Assembly: GCA_963769025.1 (NCBI GenBank)
Contig: CAVYKI010000003.1
Coordinates: forward strand, 608,001 to 672,000
Source: an uncultured Verrucomicrobiae bacterium
GTDB taxonomy: Bacteria; Verrucomicrobiota; Verrucomicrobiia; Chthoniobacterales; Chthoniobacteraceae
Reading direction: 5' to 3'
DNA: 64,000 bases
Under the pieces are notes generated by a model. The model worked only from the letters and a program-made list of their open reading frames with translations, was not told the DNA's origin and did no database searches. Shown here one piece after another: positions 3,177 to 14,535 of this stretch (positions are counted from its first letter, which is position 1; each line of letters opens with the position of its first letter). The position numbers were made by a program, and so were the translations under genes.

Positions 3177-3563
3177 ATGAAGACCGACCTGATCCACCTC
3201 GCCGTGAACGGCACGCTCATGCGCGGACTCGAACTGAATGGAAATCTGCTCGCTGTCGGCGCGGAATTCGTCCGCGAAGACGCGACCGTGCCTGCCTATC
3301 GTCTGTTCTCGATCAACGACCGCCATCCAGGGATGTATCGCGTCCGCGAGGGCGGCGTCGCGGTCGCGGTGGAAGTGTGGGCCGTCCCGCCAGCCGGACT
3401 TGCCTCGGTGCTCCTGGCCGAGCCGCCGGGCCTCACGATTGGAAAGGTGCGGCTCGCGAGCGGCGCGGAGACGCTCGGTGTCCTCGCGGAGCCGATCCTC
3501 TGCGAAGGCCAGCGCGAGATCACTTCGCACGGCGGCTGGCGCGCCTACTGCGCCGCAAAATAA
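3177..3563 (+). CDS. Stand-alone allophanate hydrolase C-terminal-like / gamma-glutamylcyclotransferase-fold protein
   Basis: LAVNGTLMRGLELN...YRLF...PG...VEVW...EPPGLTIGKVRLASG...ITSHGGWRAY resembles the AtzF C-terminal domain. Confidence 0.8.
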   Translation: MKTDLIHLAVNGTLMRGLELNGNLLAVGAEFVREDATVPAYRLFSINDRHPGMYRVREGGVAVAVEVWAVPPAGLASVLLAEPPGLTIGKVRLASGAETLGVLAEPILCEGQREITSHGGWRAYCAAK

Positions 3564-6113: not shown

Positions 6114-7926
6114 TCAGAACAGGAAATACCGCTGCGCCATCGGGAGCACGCTCGCGGGCTCGCAGGTGAGCACGCGGCCGTCGGCGCGAACGGTGTAGGT
6201 CTCGGGATCGACCTCGATGTGCGGCGTGGCGTCGTTCCAGACGAGGTGCTTCTTCGTCACGTTGCGCGTTCCCTTCACGGCGACGAGGCGCTTGCCGAGC
6301 TTCAGCGAATCGAGTGCGCCGCTTTCCAATCCGGCACCGCTGACGAACGTGACACTGGTCGAAAATTTCGCGCGGCCGTGCGCCGCAAATTGCGGGCGGT
6401 AGAACATCGGCTGCGGCGTGGGGATGCTCGCGTTCGGGTCGCCCATGTTCGCCATCGCGATGAGGCCGCCTTTCAAAATCACCTCGGGCTTTACGCCGAA
6501 GAACGCGGGCTTCCACACGACGAGGTCGGCGAGTTTGCCGGGCTCGATGCTGCCGACTTCGTGCGCGATGCCGTGGGCGATGGCGGGATTGATCGTCGTC
6601 TTCGCGATGTAGCGCAGCGCGCGAAAGTTGTCGGCGGGGAAGTGGAACCGCCAAGGCGCCAAGACGCCAAGATGGGAAGATGTGGTGCCAACGACACTGC
6701 TGCCTTTCTCTTCCTTGGCGTCTTGGCGTCTTGGCGGTTCCAAAGTGCCAAACTGCACCTTCATCTTGTGCGCCGTCTGCCAGGTGCGCGTGATGACTTC
6801 GCCGATGCGGCCCATCGCCTGCGAATCGCTCGACATGATCGAGATCGCGCCGAGGTCGTGCAGCATGTCCTCGGCGGCGATGGTCTCGGGGCGGATGCGG
6901 CTCTCGGCGAACGCGACGTCCTCGGGGATCTTCGAGTCGAGGTGATGGCACACCATGAGCATGTCGAGATGCTCGGCGATGGTGTTCACGGTGAACGGCC
7001 GCGTCGGGTTTGTGGACGACGGCAGCACGTTCAGCTCGCCGCAGACGCGGATGATGTCCGGCGCGTGGCCCGCCGCCTGCGCCTTCGCTGTGGAAGGTGT
7101 GGATCGTGCGGCCCTTGAACGCGGCGAGCGTGGCTTCGAGGAAGCCGGCTTCGTTCAGCGTGTCGGTGTGGATGGCGACCTGCACGTCGAGTTCGTCCGC
7201 GACGCCGAGGCAGCAATCGATCGCCGCGGGCGTGGTGCCCCAGTCCTCGTGCAGCTTCAGGCCGATGACTCCCGCGCGCACCTGCTCGCGCAGCGGCTCG
7301 GGCGTGGAGCAGTTGCCTTTGCCGAGGAAGCCGATGTTCATCGGGTATTCGTCTGCGGCTTCGAGCATGCGGCGGATGTTCCAGATGCCGGGCGTGCAAG
7401 TCGTGGCATACGTGCCGTGCGCAGGGCCGGTGCCGCCGCCGATCATCGTGGTCACGCCGCTCGCGAGCGCGTGCTCGATTTGCTGCGGGCAGATGAAGTG
7501 GATGTGCGTGTCGATCGAGCCCGCCGTGACGATGCAGCCCTCGCCCGCGATGACCTCCGTCGCCGCTCCGATGATCATCGTGATCCCCTGCTGGATGCCG
7601 GGATTCCCCGCATGCCCGATGCCGACGATGCGCCCGCCCTTGATGCCGATGTCGGCTTTGATGATGCCCTGCACCGCGTCGAGAATCAGCGCATTCGTGA
7701 TGACGAGGTCGAGGCACTCCGCGTCGAGCGCCGTGGACGACTGGCCCATTCCGTCGCGGATGACTTTGCCGCCGCCAAATTTCACCTCATTCCCGTACCC
7801 GCCGCTCTCCGCGATGAGGTCGCGCTCGACCTCGATGAAAAGCTCCGTGTCCGCCAGTCGCACACGATCGCCTACCGTCGGCCCGAACATGTCTGCATAC
7901 TGGCGGCGGGTGAGCGTGAGTGGCAT
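6114..7926 (-). CDS. ureC: Urease alpha subunit; one frameshift near 7070 (probable sequencing indel) and an in-frame repeat-element insertion at 6643-6742
   Basis: [68 protein letters not shown] across two frames. Confidence 0.97.
6643..6742. repeat. Palindromic element copy 1 (29-bp arms, 42-bp spacer) inside ureC
   Basis: tggaaccgccaaggcgccaagacgccaag ... cttggcgtcttggcgtcttggcggttcca, one mismatch between arms. Confidence 0.95.
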
Positions 7927-7937
7927 GGCTATTTGGG

Positions 7938-8028
7938 TGAACCGCCAAGGCGCCAAGACGCCAGGAGATGCAGGCGACAGAAATTGTTTCCTCCTCCAGA
8001 CCTTGGCGTCTTTGCGTCTTGGCGGTCA
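7938..8028. repeat. Palindromic element copy 2, between ureC start and GxxExxY stop
   Basis: tgaaccgccaaggcgccaagacgccagg ... ccttggcgtctttgcgtcttggcggtca. Confidence 0.93.
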
Positions 8029-8035
8029 CTCATAT

Positions 8036-8455
8036 TCAGTTCGAGCAGATGACGCGTTTGATGCCGTCTTTGATGAGTGGGACATTAAAGTTAATGAGCA
8101 ATCCGAGGCACCGGCTGCTCAGTTTGAGGTAAGTCAGCATCTGTGCCTTGTGGACGGGGAGCAGGTTTTCGACGGCTTTCAGTTCTACGATGAGCTTGCC
8201 CTCGACCAAAATATCGAGGCGGAGACCTGCCTCGATTTTTACGCCATCGTAAAGCACCGGCAGAGCGACTTGCCGATCCACTTTCAAACCGCGCTTGATG
8301 AGTTCGTGCGCAAGGCAAACTTCATACACGCCTTCGAGCAAACCCGGCCCGAGTTCCGTGTGAACCTTGAACGCTGCATTCACCACGGCTTTTGCCAGCA
8401 CGTCCAACTCCTCTTCGGGCTCCTCCCTTGGCGTCTTGGCGTCTTGGCGGTTCAT
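8036..8455 (-). CDS. GxxExxY family PD-(D/E)xK nuclease-like protein
   Basis: VHTELGPGLLEGVYE (GxxExxY), RLDILVEGKLIVELKA, AQMLTYLK, GLLINF; visibly more AT-rich than neighbours; ATG overlaps the ureB TGA. Confidence 0.95.
   Translation of the reverse strand: MNRQDAKTPREEPEEELDVLAKAVVNAAFKVHTELGPGLLEGVYEVCLAHELIKRGLKVDRQVALPVLYDGVKIEAGLRLDILVEGKLIVELKAVENLLPVHKAQMLTYLKLSSRCLGLLINFNVPLIKDGIKRVICSN
8427..8454. repeat. Single repeat arm (copy 3) encoding the GxxExxY N-terminus
   Basis: cttggcgtcttggcgtcttggcggttca; minus strand reads [10 protein letters not shown]. Confidence 0.93.
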
Positions 8456-8766
8456 CAAAGTTTCCCGTTCACCTTCGCGTTGAGGCCAAAGACTTCGCGC
8501 GCACCGCTGAGCGCGACGAGTTCCACGTCACGCGTGTCGCCCGGCTCGAAGCGGACGGCGGTGCCGGCCGGAATGTTGAGGCGGAATCCGCGCGCGGCTG
8601 CGCGGTCGAAGGCGAGCGATTCATTCACCTCGTAGAAATGGAAGTGGCTGCCGATCTGGACTGGCCGGTCGCCGGTGTTGGCGACTCGCACGACTTTGGT
8701 CGCGAGCGTGAGATTCGCCGGGAGTCCCGCGGGATCGTCGGCGACGATGATTTCTCCGGGGATCAT
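8455..8766 (-). CDS. ureB: Urease beta subunit
   Basis: [39 protein letters not shown]. Confidence 0.97.
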
Positions 8767-8777
8767 CGCTGACAGGT

Positions 8778-8872
8778 TGAACCGCCAAGACGCCAAGGCG
8801 CCAAGATGGCAAAAATGCCAAAAGGCGTGCCGTTGCCCGAAAATCTTGGCGTCTTGGCGTCTTGGCGGTGAA
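8778..8872. repeat. Palindromic element copy 4, between ureA and ureB
   Basis: tgaaccgccaagacgccaaggcgccaagat ... atcttggcgtcttggcgtcttggcggtgaa. Confidence 0.95.
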
Positions 8873-8881
8873 AAATCATGT

Positions 8882-9184
8882 TTAGCGGATCGGATTGTGA
8901 ACCGTGACGAGTTTTGTGCCATCGGGGAACGTGGCCTCCACCTGCACCTCGTGGATCATTTCCGGGATGCCTTCCATCACGTCGGCGCGTGTGAGGATGG
9001 TCGTGCCGTGACTCATCAAGTCCACCACGGAGCGGCCATCGCGGGCGCCTTCCATGATCTCGTAGGAGATGATGGCGATGCTCTCGGGGTAGTTCAGCTT
9101 GAGGCCGCGTTTCTGGCGGCGGCGCGCGAGGTCGGCCGCGACGACGATGAGGAGCTTCTCGGTATCGCGCGGCGCAAGGTGCAT
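8882..9184 (-). CDS. ureA: Urease gamma subunit
   Basis: [36 protein letters not shown]. Confidence 0.97.
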
Positions 9185-9875: not shown

Positions 9876-10834
9876 TCATACGGTGAGATGCCGCTTCACC
9901 ACTTCATCGGTCAGCGCTGCGACAGGCCCGGACGCCACGACCGTGCCGCGATCCATGATCGCGAAGACGTCGGCAAGCTCGCTGCAAAAATCGAGATACT
10001 GCTCGACGAGCAGGATGCTCATCTTGGCTTCGCCGTGGAGCCGCTGGAGCGCGGAGCCGATCTCGTCTCCGAGCCTCGTTCCCTCGGGCTGCTGCCTGCG
10101 GAGCTGGTCGATGCATTCGGCGAACCGGTTGAACATCGCGGGATGTTTTTCGACGCCTTCGCGCAGCAGGACGGTGATGGTTTCGCTGACCTCCGCCAGC
10201 AGCGGCGAATCCGGGCGTTCCCTCGTTGCGATAGCGTCTTCAGCGACTGGTTGATCTCGGCAAGCAATGCCGGGCTCATTGTGGTGGCCGCCGCGGCGGA
10301 GGAGCTTAATGGCATCGCCGATCTGGTCGATGATGTTGGGCTGAATGCCTTCGGTCGGCTCGTCGAGGATGAGGATCTTCGGCTCGGTGAGCAGCGCGCG
10401 GCCGATGGCGAGCTGCTGCTGCTGGCCGCCGGAGAGCATGCCGCCTTTGCGCGGCAGGAATTCCTTCAGGATCGGGAAGAGGCTGAAGACGCGGTCGAGG
10501 CTGCCGTTCGATCTTTTTGCCGAGCGCGATGGCGCCGATGTGCAGGTTCTCCTCGACGGTGAGCTGCGGGAAGATGTCGCGCCCTTGCGGGACGTAGCCG
10601 ATGCCGGCGGCGGCGCGCGCCTCGGAGGAGAGCTTGGTGATGTCCTGGCCGTCGAGCGTGATGCGGCCGGCGCTCGGCTTCATCACGCCGGTGATGCTGC
10701 GCAGCGTGCGAGGTCTTGCCGACGCCGTTGCGGCCCATGAGGCAGAAGACCTTGTGGTCCGGCACCTCGAAATCAACGCCGCGCAGGATGCGGCTGCCGC
10801 CGATGGAGAGTTCGATGGATTCTACCTTCAGCAT
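9876..10834 (-). CDS. urtE: Urea ABC transporter ATPase UrtE (frameshifted; roughly 75-aa insertion)
   Basis: GRNGVGKT, YVPQGRDIFPQLTVEENL, LSGGQQQQLAIGRAL, LDEPTEGIQPNII, LLVEQYLDF. Confidence 0.88.
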
Positions 10835-10837
10835 GGT

Positions 10838-11621
10838 TCAGTGGGTGCGGGCCTTCCGGCCGAGATAGACTTCGATGCACGCGTTCGTCGTTCTGCACTT
10901 CATCGACCGGGCCTTCGCAGAGGACGCTGCCCTGGTGGAGCACGGTGACTTTGCGGCCCGGCGGCGATCTGCCGGACGAAGACCATGTCGTGCTCGATGA
11001 CGACGATGGTGTGCTTGCCGGCGAGGCAGAGGAGCAGTTCGCCGGTCTTGTGCGTTTCCTCGTCGGTCATGCCGGCGGCGGGTTCATCGACGAGGAGCAG
11101 CTTGGCGTTTTGCGCGAGGAGCATGCCGATCTCCAGCCACTGCTTCTGGCCGTGCGCGAGCGCGCCGGCCTTCCAGTCGCGCTGTTTCGTCGAGATTGAT
11201 CGTCTTGAGGATCTCGTCCATCCGGTCGCGTTCGGCGCTGTTCGGCTTGTGGAAGAGGCTCGCCCAGACGCCGCGGCTGCCCTCGAGGCTGAGCAGCAGA
11301 TTTTCCCAGACCGTGTGGTCGGTATAGACCGTGGGCGTCTGGAATTTCCGGCCGATGCCGAGCCGGTAGATCTGGTACTCGTTCATCCGCGTCACGTCGT
11401 GCGCGCCCTCGAATTCGATCGTGCCCGTGTCGGGCTTGGTGCGGCCGGTGATGAGATCGAGGAAGGTCGTCTTGCCCGCGCCGTTCGGCCCGATGACGGT
11501 GCGCAGTTCTCCCTCATCGAGGTAGAAGTTGAGGTTCGTGATGGCCTTGAAGCCGGCGAACGCCTTGTTCACGCCCTCGGCGGCGAGGAGAAATTGTTCG
11601 TTGGGTGGAATCGATCTTCAT
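10838..11621 (-). CDS. urtD: Urea ABC transporter ATPase UrtD (frameshifted)
   Basis: GPNGAGKTT, GIGRKFQTPTV, LVDEPAAGMT, VIEHDM, EVYLGR. Confidence 0.9.
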
Positions 11622-12768
11622 GGCTCCACGGCAGACTTGTCGGACAGGGCGGGTTCAGGCTCGCCGGCTTTTCGTCTGGCAAACACGCCGCGCAACTGCG
11701 CGGGCAGGCCGACGATTCCCTTGGGCATGAAGAGCACGACGAGGATGAACAGCACGCCGAGGATGATGAGCCAGTAGATCGGGATAGGCGCGCGTCGCCC
11801 AGCTCTTCAGCGCGTTCACGCTGATGGCGCCGATGATCGGGCCGACGAGCGTGCCGCGTCCGCCGACCGCGCACCAGACGACGGCTTCGAGCGATTTCTC
11901 CGGCGTCATCTCGCTCGGGTTGATGATGCCGACCTGCGGGACGTAGAGCGCGCCGCCGAGCGCTCGCGATGACGGCGCACGACGACGAAGATGAAGAGCT
12001 TGTAGTTCGCCGCGGCGTAGCCGGAGAAAAGCACGCGCGTTCTCGCGAGTCGCGGATGGCGCGCTGCACGAGGCCGAACTTCGTCGCGCGTGAGCCAGCG
12101 GCAGCAGCGCATAGACCGCGACGAGCAGCGACCGCCGTGGCGATGTAGAGGCCGCGCTGCGTCGCCGGCGTCGCGCATGTCGGCGCCGAGGACGCGCTTG
12201 AAATCGGTGAAGCCGTTGTTGCCGCCCATGGTCATGTCGTTGCGGAAGAACATGAGCGCCGCGCCGTAGGTGAGCGCCTGGGTGAGGATGGAGAAATAGA
12301 CGCCCTTGATCCGCGAGCGGAAGGCGAGGAAACCGAAGACCAGCGCGAGCAGCGCCGGGCACGAGCACGACCATGAGCAGCCGCGAAGCGGAAGGACGTA
12401 GAACGGCTTCCAGAACGTCGGCAGCAAGGTGTGCCCGAGGAAGACCATGAAGTCCGGCAGCAGGTTCGGATTGTTGCCGGACTTGAAGTACTGCCCGTCC
12501 TCCCCGATCATCAGCATGAGGTGCATGCCGAGCATGTAGCCGCCGAGGCTGAAAGAAGAGCGCCTGGCCGAGGCTGAGCAGGCCGGTGTAGCCCCAGAGC
12601 AGGTCGACGCGAGATCGCGAGCAGGCCGTAGCAGAGATATTTGCCCCAGAGGTTGATCGTGAAGTTGCTGACGACGCCCGCGGCATTCAGCGCGGGCAGG
12701 ACGACCACGAGAATCACGGCGATGATGGCCGCGATCAGGAGTTCGATTTTGGAAATATTGCGCTTCAT
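11618..12768 (-). CDS. urtC: Urea ABC transporter permease UrtC (frameshifted)
   Basis: [65 protein letters not shown]. Confidence 0.9.
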
Positions 12769-12784
12769 TTTTGGGTCGTGGCGC

Positions 12785-14535
12785 TCAGCCTTCGAGGCTG
12801 CGGCTCTTGGTGACGAAGAGTCCCGCCGGCCGCCATTGGAGGAAGAGGATGATGCCCACGAGGACGAGGATCTTTCCGAGCACGGGATTGCGCAGGATTT
12901 GCTGCAGGCTCTGGTCGACCACGCCGATGCCGAGCGCGCTGACGACCGTGCCGATGATGTTGCCCACGCCGCCGACGACCACGGTCATGAAGGAATCGAC
13001 GATGTAGTTCTGGCCGAGGCCCGGGCCGACATTGCCGATCTGGCGAGAGGAACGCGCCGGCGAGACCCGCGAGGCCGCTGCCGAAGGCGAAGGTGAGCAT
13101 GTTCACCCGCTCGGTGCGCACGCCCATGCAGGCGGCCATCTGGCGGTTTTGCATGACGGCGCGGATGAGCAGGCCGAGCGGAGTTTTCGTGAGCAGCAGC
13201 GCAGGTGCCGAAGATGATGAGGACGGCGAAGCCGATGACGAAGACGCGGTTCCAGCCGAAGATGACGTCGTTGACGGTCCAGTTGCCGCTGAGAGCCAGC
13301 GCGGGCTGAATAGACCTGCACGTTGTTCGCGCCGAAGATGAGGCGGAAGAGCTGCTGCAGGACGAGCGAGACGCCCCAGGTGGCGAGGAGCGATTCCAGC
13401 GGACGGCGGTAGAGGAAGCGGATGACGCCGCGCTCCAGCGCGATGCCGACGAGCGCCGCGCATGAGGAAGCTGAGCGGGCAGCGCGACGAGGAAGTAGCA
13501 GTCGAGCGCGCTGCCGGTGAGGTCCATGCCGCCGGGACGGTGAATCGGCATGCCGAAGGGCGAGAAGTGCACGAGCCCGGCGCCGAAGATGCCCTGCACG
13601 ACGTAGGTCGTGTAGGCGCCGACGGCGATCAGTTCGCCGTGCGCCATATTGATCACGCCCATGAGGCCGAAGGTGATGGCGAGGCCGATGGCGACGACGA
13701 GCAGGATGGAGCCGAGCGAGATCCGCGGAAGCCGGTGCCGATCGCGTTGACCATCTTGACGTGCGATTCGACCGACTTCAGCGCGGCTTGCGCGGCCGTG
13801 ACCACCTCCGGCTCGCCTTCGCTGTCCTTGATGAGCTGCTTGAGAAAGTCGCGGCTCGGAATGGAGCCGAGCGCCTTCAGCTCGTTCACCGCGGCGATCT
13901 GCTCGGCGGGCTCCTCGGCCTTGAGCTGGATGAGCGCGACCGCCTCGCGGTACGGCGCGCAGGACCTTGGCGTCCTTCTCGGTCTTCTCCGCGGCGTCGC
14001 AACGCGCGGGAGCTTCTCCACATCCTGGGCCATGCCGAGCGTGCTGATGGCCTGGATGCGCTTCTCGCGGTCCGGGTCGAGCGAGCGCGAGAAGATCGAG
14101 CACGCGTCTTCATCGCGCCGCGGAGATTCGGAGTCGTGCTCCGCAGTATCGACATCGGCCGCGACGAGCCGCAGCGGCTTTCCGTCCGCGTCCTGAGCAG
14201 AGGCTTGCCGTCATCCACGCGGAACGCCGCCTGCGCGTCCTCGCCGTCCTTTTCCCCGCCGAGCGTGACCGGGATTTTCTGCTGCCGTCGCGCCTTGTAA
14301 ATGAAAATGCGCGTCCTCCTTCCACGCGTCGAGCAGCGCGCGGATGATCGAGTCATCCGCCCGGCCGATGAGGCTGCTGATGAGCGCGACCTTCTTCTCG
14401 TCGTCCTCTTCGACGAATCGCCTGCGCGATGATCTGCCGGGGCGACTGCACCTGCGCACGCAGCGAGGGGCCGGCAAGCAGGACGAGCAGGGTGATGAAT
14501 TGCAGGGCACGCGATGCGGCCGCAGAAAATGTCAT
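12785..14535 (-). CDS. urtB: Urea ABC transporter permease UrtB with N-terminal helical extension (heavily frameshifted)
   Basis: [50 protein letters not shown]. Confidence 0.87.

What the first reader, a model, noticed from the sequence alone, without database searches (positions are those of the whole stretch)
6643..8872. GxxExxY nuclease with a cognate palindromic repeat family invading a urease operon: candidate REPIN/MITE-like mobile system
Seen: seven arms of about 28 bp built from three tandem 8-mers (AAC-CGCCAAGR x3) within 2.2 kb, and no other copy found by eye in the 64 kb. They form three complete hairpin elements (6643-6742, 7938-8028, 8778-8872) plus a lone arm at 8427-8454. The arms at 7938 and 8427-8454 are inverted relative to each other and bracket the whole GxxExxY gene like terminal inverted repeats. 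The gene is AT-richer than its neighbours and splits the usually adjacent ureB and ureC. Known: GxxExxY proteins belong to the PD-(D/E)xK superfamily with no established function; RAYT/REPIN pairs have a similar enzyme-plus-local-repeat layout but use an HUH enzyme. Inference: an autonomous unit of about 520 bp plus non-autonomous copies of about 95 bp, spread by or recognised by this nuclease.
Basis: partly seen in the sequence, partly recalled or inferred. Interest (0 to 1): 0.85.

Follow-up and report, generated by a model that had tools for sequence, protein, structure and literature searches.

The report
Nuclease-linked hairpins colonising a urease operon
A small uncharacterised DNA-cutting enzyme gene and three matching hairpin repeats sit inside a urease operon, one of them in frame inside the enzyme's main subunit, and related bacteria show such hairpins being gained, swapped and flipped at the same spots, which points to a selfish repeat family tied to this nuclease.

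Summary
Confirmed: seven arms, three hairpins and an intact GxxExxY gene. Empty alleles exist at all three operon positions. Inverted arms frame most GxxExxY genes of the genus (44 of 72 vs 2 of 144 swapped pairs), and arm sequence tracks protein sequence across different sites (rho 0.67). The nuclease is under purifying selection. It is not a plain copy-paste MITE: no target duplication seen, unrelated loops, the same sites re-occupied by different repeat families, loops found flipped, no RNA-strand pairing bias. Against: only 8 of 123 arm loci hold the gene, and the genome's commonest octamer family has no cognate gene in the assembly. Best reading (0.5): a DNA-level selfish family whose nuclease recognises its arms. 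Activity is untested. Nine paper searches found no description; this scan reported the cassette before on other genomes.

The parts
6114..7926 (-). ureC (urease alpha subunit); one extra base near 7067-7069 breaks the frame in this assembly, probably an assembly indel
   Evidence: extra base against 3 relatives and against other organisms' contigs; pheS is also split in this assembly
6643..6742 (.). Hairpin 1 (arms 6643-6671 and 6714-6742, 42-nt loop), in frame inside ureC; adds 26-30 residues in the loop matching residues about 389-395 of the solved urease chain 1a5m_C
7929..8033 (-). 34-codon ATG-started mini-ORF that starts 2 nt after the nuclease stop, reads through hairpin 2 and stops 2 nt before the ureC start
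   Evidence: no null test was obtained
7938..8028 (.). Hairpin 2, 3' end of the cassette; its loop fits the orthologous loop of G024 better inverted than colinear
8036..8455 (-). GxxExxY gene, 139 aa, PD-(D/E)xK nuclease fold, D81-E91-K93 invariant, Q105-x3-Y109 motif; start overlaps the ureB stop
8427..8454 (-). Left arm of the cassette, translated as the nuclease's low-confidence N-terminus
8455..8766 (-). ureB
8763..8879 (-). 38-codon ATG-started mini-ORF that reads through hairpin 3; its stop overlaps the ureB start
   Evidence: same layout with unrelated loops in L304 and G111
8778..8872 (.). Hairpin 3 in the ureA-ureB junction
8882..9184 (-). ureA

Best explanation
This is a selfish, DNA-level gene-plus-hairpin family. 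The full form is a GxxExxY nuclease gene between two inverted arms of three tandem 8-10-mers; gene-less hairpins are its derivatives. SHOWN by comparison: cassette and hairpins are gained and lost at exact sites; arm type follows protein type; hairpins persist where they do least harm (operon junctions with a reading frame through them, tolerant protein loops); loops flip; one repeat family replaces another at the same site. INFERRED: the nuclease binds its own arm family in extruded hairpin or cruciform DNA and nicks it. Repair by recombination or gene conversion then copies the element into empty alleles or existing stem-loops, homogenises nearby arms (all four elements here share one unit) and inverts loops. 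It would thus spread by cut-and-repair at stem-loops rather than by copy-paste with target duplication.
For: Arms frame 44 of 72 GxxExxY rows from 70 genus loci vs 2 of 144 swapped pairs. Protein-core identity vs arm similarity, one row per site: rho 0.67, n=52, p=0.001; genus only rho 0.49, n=10, p=0.035; metagenome only rho 0.34, n=38, p=0.0005. Dispersed arms are richer in genomes holding the cognate gene for 2 of 3 families (p 0.003 and 0.004), with 6 of 6 wrong-family controls not significant. dN/dS about 0.05-0.1 in 4 of 6 pairs (one saturated, one near-identical); catalytic D81/E91/K93 invariant in 100 homologues. Cassette state changes at least 6 times on a 29-row urease tree, monophyly rejected, p-AU 1e-75; empty G022 is sister to filled G007/G016 and keeps the tight ancestral junction. 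G103 is an internal-deletion derivative. In metG, 12 of 17 comparable genes carry a repeat in one loop, from 6 unit types; octamer carriers are not a clade (p-AU 3e-69); G018 is 97-98% identical to G002 in the flanks yet carries this window's family. Loops inverted in 8 of 13 paralogous copies in G013. G.U 51 vs A.C 48 on the mRNA strand.
Against: Only 8 of 123 arm loci (5 of the 80 with 1.5-kb flanks) hold the gene. The genome's commonest octamer family (38 arms) has no cognate gene in this 83%-complete assembly, and G003 (95% complete) has 71 such arms without one found. For this window's own family the genome-level association is not significant (p=0.10); genomes are related, so these p-values overstate. 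Four-helix-bundle genes, which are not nucleases, show similar repeat flanks (3 of 3 here). The recent burst in G013 is a larger composite with other palindromes, and some copies sit inside GTAG-type REP pairs in a genome that has a Y1 transposase, so other enzymes may move them. Co-variation can arise from gene and arms simply travelling together. One ancient gain plus many losses is not excluded: ure-site nucleases may be one clade (p-AU 0.23). Loop flips can come from replication template switching or from assembly. The metagenome homologues were seeded partly with the arm-encoded N-terminal peptide.
Confidence: 0.5

Rival explanations
1. Passive hitch-hiking: the hairpins arise and are kept symmetric by replication slippage and template switching, are moved by other enzymes (RAYT, IS transposases) or by homologous recombination in conserved flanks, and the nuclease is cargo with another job (defence, repair, toxin).
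Against: Arm type follows protein type across unrelated sites; two arm families are richer where the cognate gene is present; double-domain GxxExxY forms lack arms (scores 7-9), so packaging is clade-specific.
Confidence: 0.27
2. Free-standing homing endonuclease: each nuclease clade cuts the empty allele of its own site (here ureB-ureC) and the arms only cushion the insertion.
For: Clades match sites (pheS-pheT 9 rows, 97/95; ureB-ureC 4 rows); patchy precise presence/absence and decayed copies; small PD-(D/E)xK homing enzymes exist (I-Ssp6803I, PMC3384342 passages).
Against: 131 homologues fell into 75 different sites, with 60-74% identical proteins at unrelated sites sharing arm type, not target; gene-less hairpins recur at sites no nuclease occupies (metG, ureC).
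Confidence: 0.13
3. RNA-level element like an rRNA intervening sequence: the arms pair in mRNA as RNase III or stability signals and serve regulation of the operon.
For: Same arm-ORF-arm layout as IVS (PMC4990558 abstract); stable stems; reading frames run through hairpins 2 and 3.
Against: No G.U excess on the mRNA strand, 51 vs 48 in 55 stems from 75 sites; the window's hairpins fold as well or better on the antisense strand; in-frame inserts keep frame without removal; no joint that removes exactly a hairpin was listed in 4 runs, though these hold only relatives.
Confidence: 0.1

Closest known systems
REPIN / RAYT systems (Bertels & Rainey 2011, PMC3116915; passages read)
   Same: One enzyme gene per repeat flavour, repeat cluster beside the gene, dispersed doublets forming hairpins, long co-evolution of enzyme and repeat.
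   Different: Enzyme here is PD-(D/E)xK, not HUH/Y1; arms are tandem 8-10-mers without a GTAG tag and not palindromic by themselves; the gene lies inside the arms and occupies many sites; copy number is low (12 arms).
Rickettsia palindromic elements (as summarised in PMC10969869 and PMC3733652; passages)
   Same: Palindromic DNA inserted in frame in loops of housekeeping proteins (here UreC, MetRS, and urea carboxylase in two relatives).
   Different: RPEs encode a conserved peptide and have no known enzyme; here only arm-coded residues are shared, loops are unrelated, and a candidate enzyme exists.
ORF-bearing 23S rRNA intervening sequences (PMC4990558; abstract and outline only)
   Same: Small ORF in the loop of a long stem; lateral spread.
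   Different: Located in mRNA operons and coding loops, not rRNA; ORF is a nuclease; no sign of RNA-level selection on pairing.
Heptamer repeats of Beggiatoaceae, Xanthomonas and Nostoc (PMC4679880, PMC4692102; passages); STRR of cyanobacteria (recalled)
   Same: Short tandem units, often as convergent pairs, in operon junctions and sometimes in ORFs; patchy spread across phyla; no mechanism known.
   Different: The passages read name no associated enzyme; here 8-mers are tied to a nuclease family and 7-mer arrays compete for the same sites.
PD-(D/E)xK homing endonuclease I-Ssp6803I and Hjc resolvases (PMC3384342 passages)
   Same: Small restriction-fold nucleases acting on long pseudo-palindromes or four-way junctions; Hjc appears in the fold search (Z 6.3, rmsd 3.4, 87 aligned).
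   Different: No intron host; closest folds are Cas4/RecB-type (SSO0001 Z 7.8, rmsd 3.1, 99 aligned); middling Z shows the superfamily only.

Membership tests
GxxExxY / PDDEXK_3 (TIGR04256, PF13366) | HMM score above curated cut-off | tested here: met
   147 vs 35 bits; 142 vs 22 bits
PD-(D/E)xK nuclease superfamily | Fold and D...E-x-K active site | tested here: met
   pLDDT 90 model; top matches Cas4 SSO0001 and restriction-like folds; D81, E91, K93 invariant in 100 sequences
PD-(D/E)xK nuclease superfamily | Nuclease activity | not testable with these tools
   needs biochemistry
REPIN/RAYT | Adjacent enzyme is an HUH/Y1 transposase | tested here: not met
   adjacent gene is PD-(D/E)xK; the genome's one Y1 match is on another contig
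REPIN/RAYT | Repeat doublets forming hairpins, clustered beside a cognate enzyme gene | tested here: met
   7 of 12 arms within 2.2 kb; co-variation
REPIN/RAYT | GTAG-type tag beside a short palindromic REP | tested here: not met
   arms are tandem 8-mers without such a tag
MITE | Terminal inverted repeats | tested here: met
MITE | Target-site duplication | tested here: inconclusive
   none evident at ureC, ureB-ureC or metG junctions; a 5-nt direct repeat flanks the ureA-ureB insert; only genus-level relatives were available
MITE | Copies alike over their whole length | tested here: not met
   loops of the four G000 hairpins differ in length (20-42 nt) and share only weak likeness
RPE-like in-frame insertions | Palindrome inserted in frame in conserved proteins, absent from orthologues | tested here: met
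   ureC 14 of 14 relatives lack it; metG
RPE-like in-frame insertions | Host protein stays active | not testable with these tools
   loop position known; ureC also has a probable assembly frameshift
23S rRNA IVS | Located in rRNA and removed by RNase III | tested here: not met
   located in a protein-coding operon; no RNA-strand bias
Homing endonuclease | Patchy presence at one exact site with intact empty alleles | tested here: met
Homing endonuclease | Cuts the empty allele | not testable with these tools
   needs biochemistry

The most novel reading that the evidence does not exclude
GxxExxY proteins are the enzymes of an undescribed class of mobile DNA: a minimal Cas4/RecB-type nuclease that recognises tandem-unit arms in cruciform DNA and drives insertion, replacement and inversion at stem-loops without target duplication. 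It would be the first mechanism for the short tandem 7-10-mer inverted repeats scattered over many phyla, and a recurring source of new loop sequence in essential proteins.
Probability: 0.35. Interest if true: 0.92.

Novelty: new variant of a known kind. Interest (0 to 1): 0.76.

Why it matters
GxxExxY is a very large family (at least 7,997 homologues in one capped search) listed with unknown function (PMC3424549 table). Short tandem inverted repeats of bacteria have no known means of spread (PMC4679880 abstract). This locus joins the two questions and gives exact substrates: cognate and non-cognate arms, empty and filled alleles, invariant catalytic residues. A 139-residue enzyme that acts on a 28-bp arm pair would be one of the smallest DNA-rearranging systems. 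The in-frame copies show repeats rewriting the same loop of MetRS and urease several times independently.

Tried and rejected
Known RNA family: Rfam gave only the ureC-antisense family RF02514 and a sub-threshold miRNA hit on hairpin 1. Splicing or excision: reads of this strain were not found (best share 0.18); 4 runs laid held relatives only; joints across the cassette carried 4-5 other letters and are relatives' empty alleles. Phage carriage: no relative in viral contigs or 50,697 phage records; 8 of 72,556 plasmid records. Solved relatives by sequence: none. Single-sequence fold was poor (pLDDT 47.5) and was replaced. Other cargo behind unpaired arms: 52 of 214 candidate frames were scanned; hits were ordinary neighbours, no recurrent second cargo; apparent in-frame spans in other phyla were not confirmed as real genes. 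RNA-level pairing selection: no bias. Loop identity among G000 hairpins: weak, some p 0.004-0.03 that purine/pyrimidine skew may explain. A homodimer prediction was never obtained, so oligomeric state is open. A null test for the mini-ORFs was not obtained, so their significance is open. Paper searches found no link between GxxExxY and repeats; the library lacks most subscription papers and no supplements were read.

Full report
What is there. The window holds ureA-ureB-ureC on the minus strand. A 139-aa GxxExxY gene (8036-8455) lies between ureB and ureC; it passes TIGR04256 and PF13366 and has 54.5% GC against 62.7-65.3% for the ure genes. Seven arms of three 8-mers form hairpins 6643-6742, 7938-8028 and 8778-8872 plus a single arm 8427-8454; they are the only such arms in the 64 kb and fold with z -5.9 to -9.9. 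Named near homologues come from Chthoniobacteraceae and other Verrucomicrobiota, which suggests the host group.

Hairpin 1 lies in frame inside ureC: the segment is 61 residues here and 31-35 in 14 of 14 relatives, in the loop at residues about 389-395 of solved urease chain 1a5m_C. A second copy lies in frame in metG on the same contig. Hairpins 2 and 3 are each crossed by an ATG-started frame (34 and 38 codons) that begins at the upstream stop and ends at the downstream start; the same layout occurs with unrelated loops in G024, G111 and L304 but not at every junction seen, and I have no null test for it. ureC has one extra base near 7067-7069. pheS is split too, so an assembly indel is likely, but a dead ureC is not excluded.

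Genome context. Twelve arms match the family pattern, seven of them here, control pattern 0. An unbiased scan listed 27 hairpins with tandem 7- or 8-mer arms of several families. The commonest octamer family has 38-40 arms, yet the assembly (83% complete) holds a single GxxExxY gene. Three four-helix-bundle genes also have tandem-repeat flanks. One Y1 transposase is present.

Empty and filled sites. ureA-ureB: tight in 11 of 11 parsed relatives. ureB-ureC, 13 parsed: cassette in 4, tight junction in 7, heptamer repeats in 2. Across the order, 30 loci added four more cassettes at ureB-ureC in simple arm-gene-arm form, one internal-deletion derivative (G103: left-arm stub joined to the gene's last codons, right arm kept), and a cassette with other arms at ureA-ureB. 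On a 29-row UreB/UreC tree the cassette state changes at least 6 times and carriers are not a clade (p-AU 1e-75); empty G022 is sister to filled G007/G016 and has the ancestral tight junction. The nucleases from this site may still be one clade (p-AU 0.23), so one old gain with many precise losses, or repeated homing, both fit. Contigs of related organisms in 4 public runs show the empty junction and, in one contig, a different octamer array in the same ureC loop. pheS-pheT behaves alike: cassette in 9 of 28 loci, each with complementary left and right arms of its own unit, tight junction in 9.

Replacement and flipping. In metG, 24 of 26 loci were parsed and 7 with a different loop type were set aside. 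Of 17 comparable genes, 5 carry octamer hairpins with the same boundaries, 3 heptamer hairpins, 4 single heptamer arrays, 5 nothing. G003's left arm is a chimera of two octamer types. A tree of the flanks rejects a clade of octamer carriers (p-AU 3e-69) and of the two carriers of this window's unit (8e-10); G018 is 97-98% identical to G002 in the flanks but carries this window's family. The loop of hairpin 2 aligns to its orthologue in G024 better inverted (p 0.0015) than colinear (p 0.08), one of 20 comparisons, while gene, arms and flanks align colinearly. In G013, 8 of 13 paralogous copies of another family have the loop inverted relative to shared flanks. Assembly could cause some flips.

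Link between enzyme and arms. Among 72 HMM rows from 70 genus loci, 44 had an upstream/downstream inverted match scoring 15 or more, against 2 of 144 swapped pairs; double-domain forms lacked it. A tree of 62 proteins (7 loci with double-domain or fused forms left out) groups them by arm type and by site. With the arm-encoded N-terminus removed and one row per site, protein identity and arm similarity correlate: rho 0.67, 52 of 75 sites having a called arm; rho 0.49 for 10 genus rows and 0.34 for 38 metagenome rows. The link is to a family of related 8-mers; this window's exact unit also flanks proteins 49-60% identical. After removing arms next to the gene, two of three arm families are richer in genomes with the cognate gene (p 0.003, 0.004), this window's family is not (p 0.10), and six wrong-family controls are not significant; the 30 genomes are kin. 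The exact arm occurs in at least 123 places in genomes of about nine phyla by record title, with the gene inside in 8.

The enzyme. dN/dS between G000 and G024 is 0.08/1.7. D81, E91, K93 and Y109 are invariant and Q105 nearly so in 100 homologues; reading Q-x3-Y as the RecB/Cas4-type motif is recalled knowledge. The model (pLDDT 90) matches Cas4 SSO0001 best in Foldseek (E 0.0017) and restriction-like folds at Z up to 8, which shows the superfamily, not a function.

DNA or RNA. In 55 stems from 75 sites, transitions gave 51 G.U and 48 A.C pairs on the mRNA strand. Selection on RNA pairing predicts a G.U excess; symmetry kept at the DNA level predicts none.

Mechanism. Shown: presence/absence at exact sites, derivation of a gene-less form, family replacement, loop inversion, enzyme-arm co-variation, purifying selection. 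Inferred: the nuclease nicks its own arms in hairpin or cruciform DNA and repair copies, converts or flips the element; existing stem-loops are preferred targets (some copies sit inside REP pairs). I give this 0.5, passive hitch-hiking 0.27, site-specific homing 0.13 and an RNA role 0.1.

What is known. It works like REPIN/RAYT and like Rickettsia palindromic elements but fails the membership tests for REPIN, MITE and IVS. Papers seen: passages of PMC3116915, PMC10969869, PMC3733652, PMC4692102, PMC3384342, PMC3424549 and bioRxiv 2021.01.26.428298; passages, abstract and section 15 of PMC4679880; abstract of PMC4990558; no supplements, which may bear on the novelty claim. 'GxxExxY' occurs in 3 papers of the library, 2 listed, neither about repeats by title and abstract start; I read the passage in one. 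Eight further searches found no link. This scan has reported the cassette in other genomes many times, including in-frame copies and overlapping stop/start chains; those are unchecked notes, not support. A search of those notes for loop inversion plus same-site replacement returned nothing.

Verdict. Real, not ordinary, not found in print. Interest 0.76; new variant of a known kind (enzyme plus cognate hairpin repeats, with an unrelated enzyme), with a 0.35 chance of being a new class of mobile DNA.

Noticed in passing
window 7067-7069: One extra base shifts the ureC frame; the urea-transporter genes at about 9900-14200 also look frameshifted, as expected of an indel-rich assembly.
   Followed up: partly
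G000 C3:993416-993487 (L071): Same hairpin family in frame in metG; the loop is a hot spot for six repeat types in the genus.
   Followed up: yes
L002, L003, L004: All three four-helix-bundle (TIGR02436) genes of the genome have tandem 7-8-mer flanks, two with inverted partners downstream.
   Followed up: partly
L466, L467 (G020, G008): This window's hairpin family in frame in a gene that reads like urea carboxylase (name recalled from the sequence, not searched), about 9 kb from ureC.
   Followed up: partly
L465, L469 (G001, G024): Same family between two urea ABC-transporter genes upstream of ure, where G000 has a tight junction.
   Followed up: partly
L435-L453 (G013): Recent burst of an about 230-bp composite repeat with near-identical 37-bp arms, a 64-67-nt loop in either orientation, and a tandem array right behind the cognate GxxExxY gene (L448).
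   Followed up: partly
L470, L474, G000 C12:425686: Octamer hairpins nested in the loop of GTAG-type REP pairs.
   Followed up: partly
L284, L274, L289-L293: Double-domain or fused GxxExxY proteins (about 270-390 aa open frames) that lack arms; possibly domesticated.
   Followed up: no
window 7470-7762 (+): Rfam RF02514 (5_ureB_sRNA) match antisense to the ureC 5' part, 77.5 bits; probably coding-sequence similarity.
   Followed up: no
window 3177-3563 (+): 128-aa ORF that reads like an allophanate-hydrolase C-terminal / gamma-glutamylcyclotransferase-like protein next to the ure cluster (recalled resemblance, not searched).
   Followed up: no
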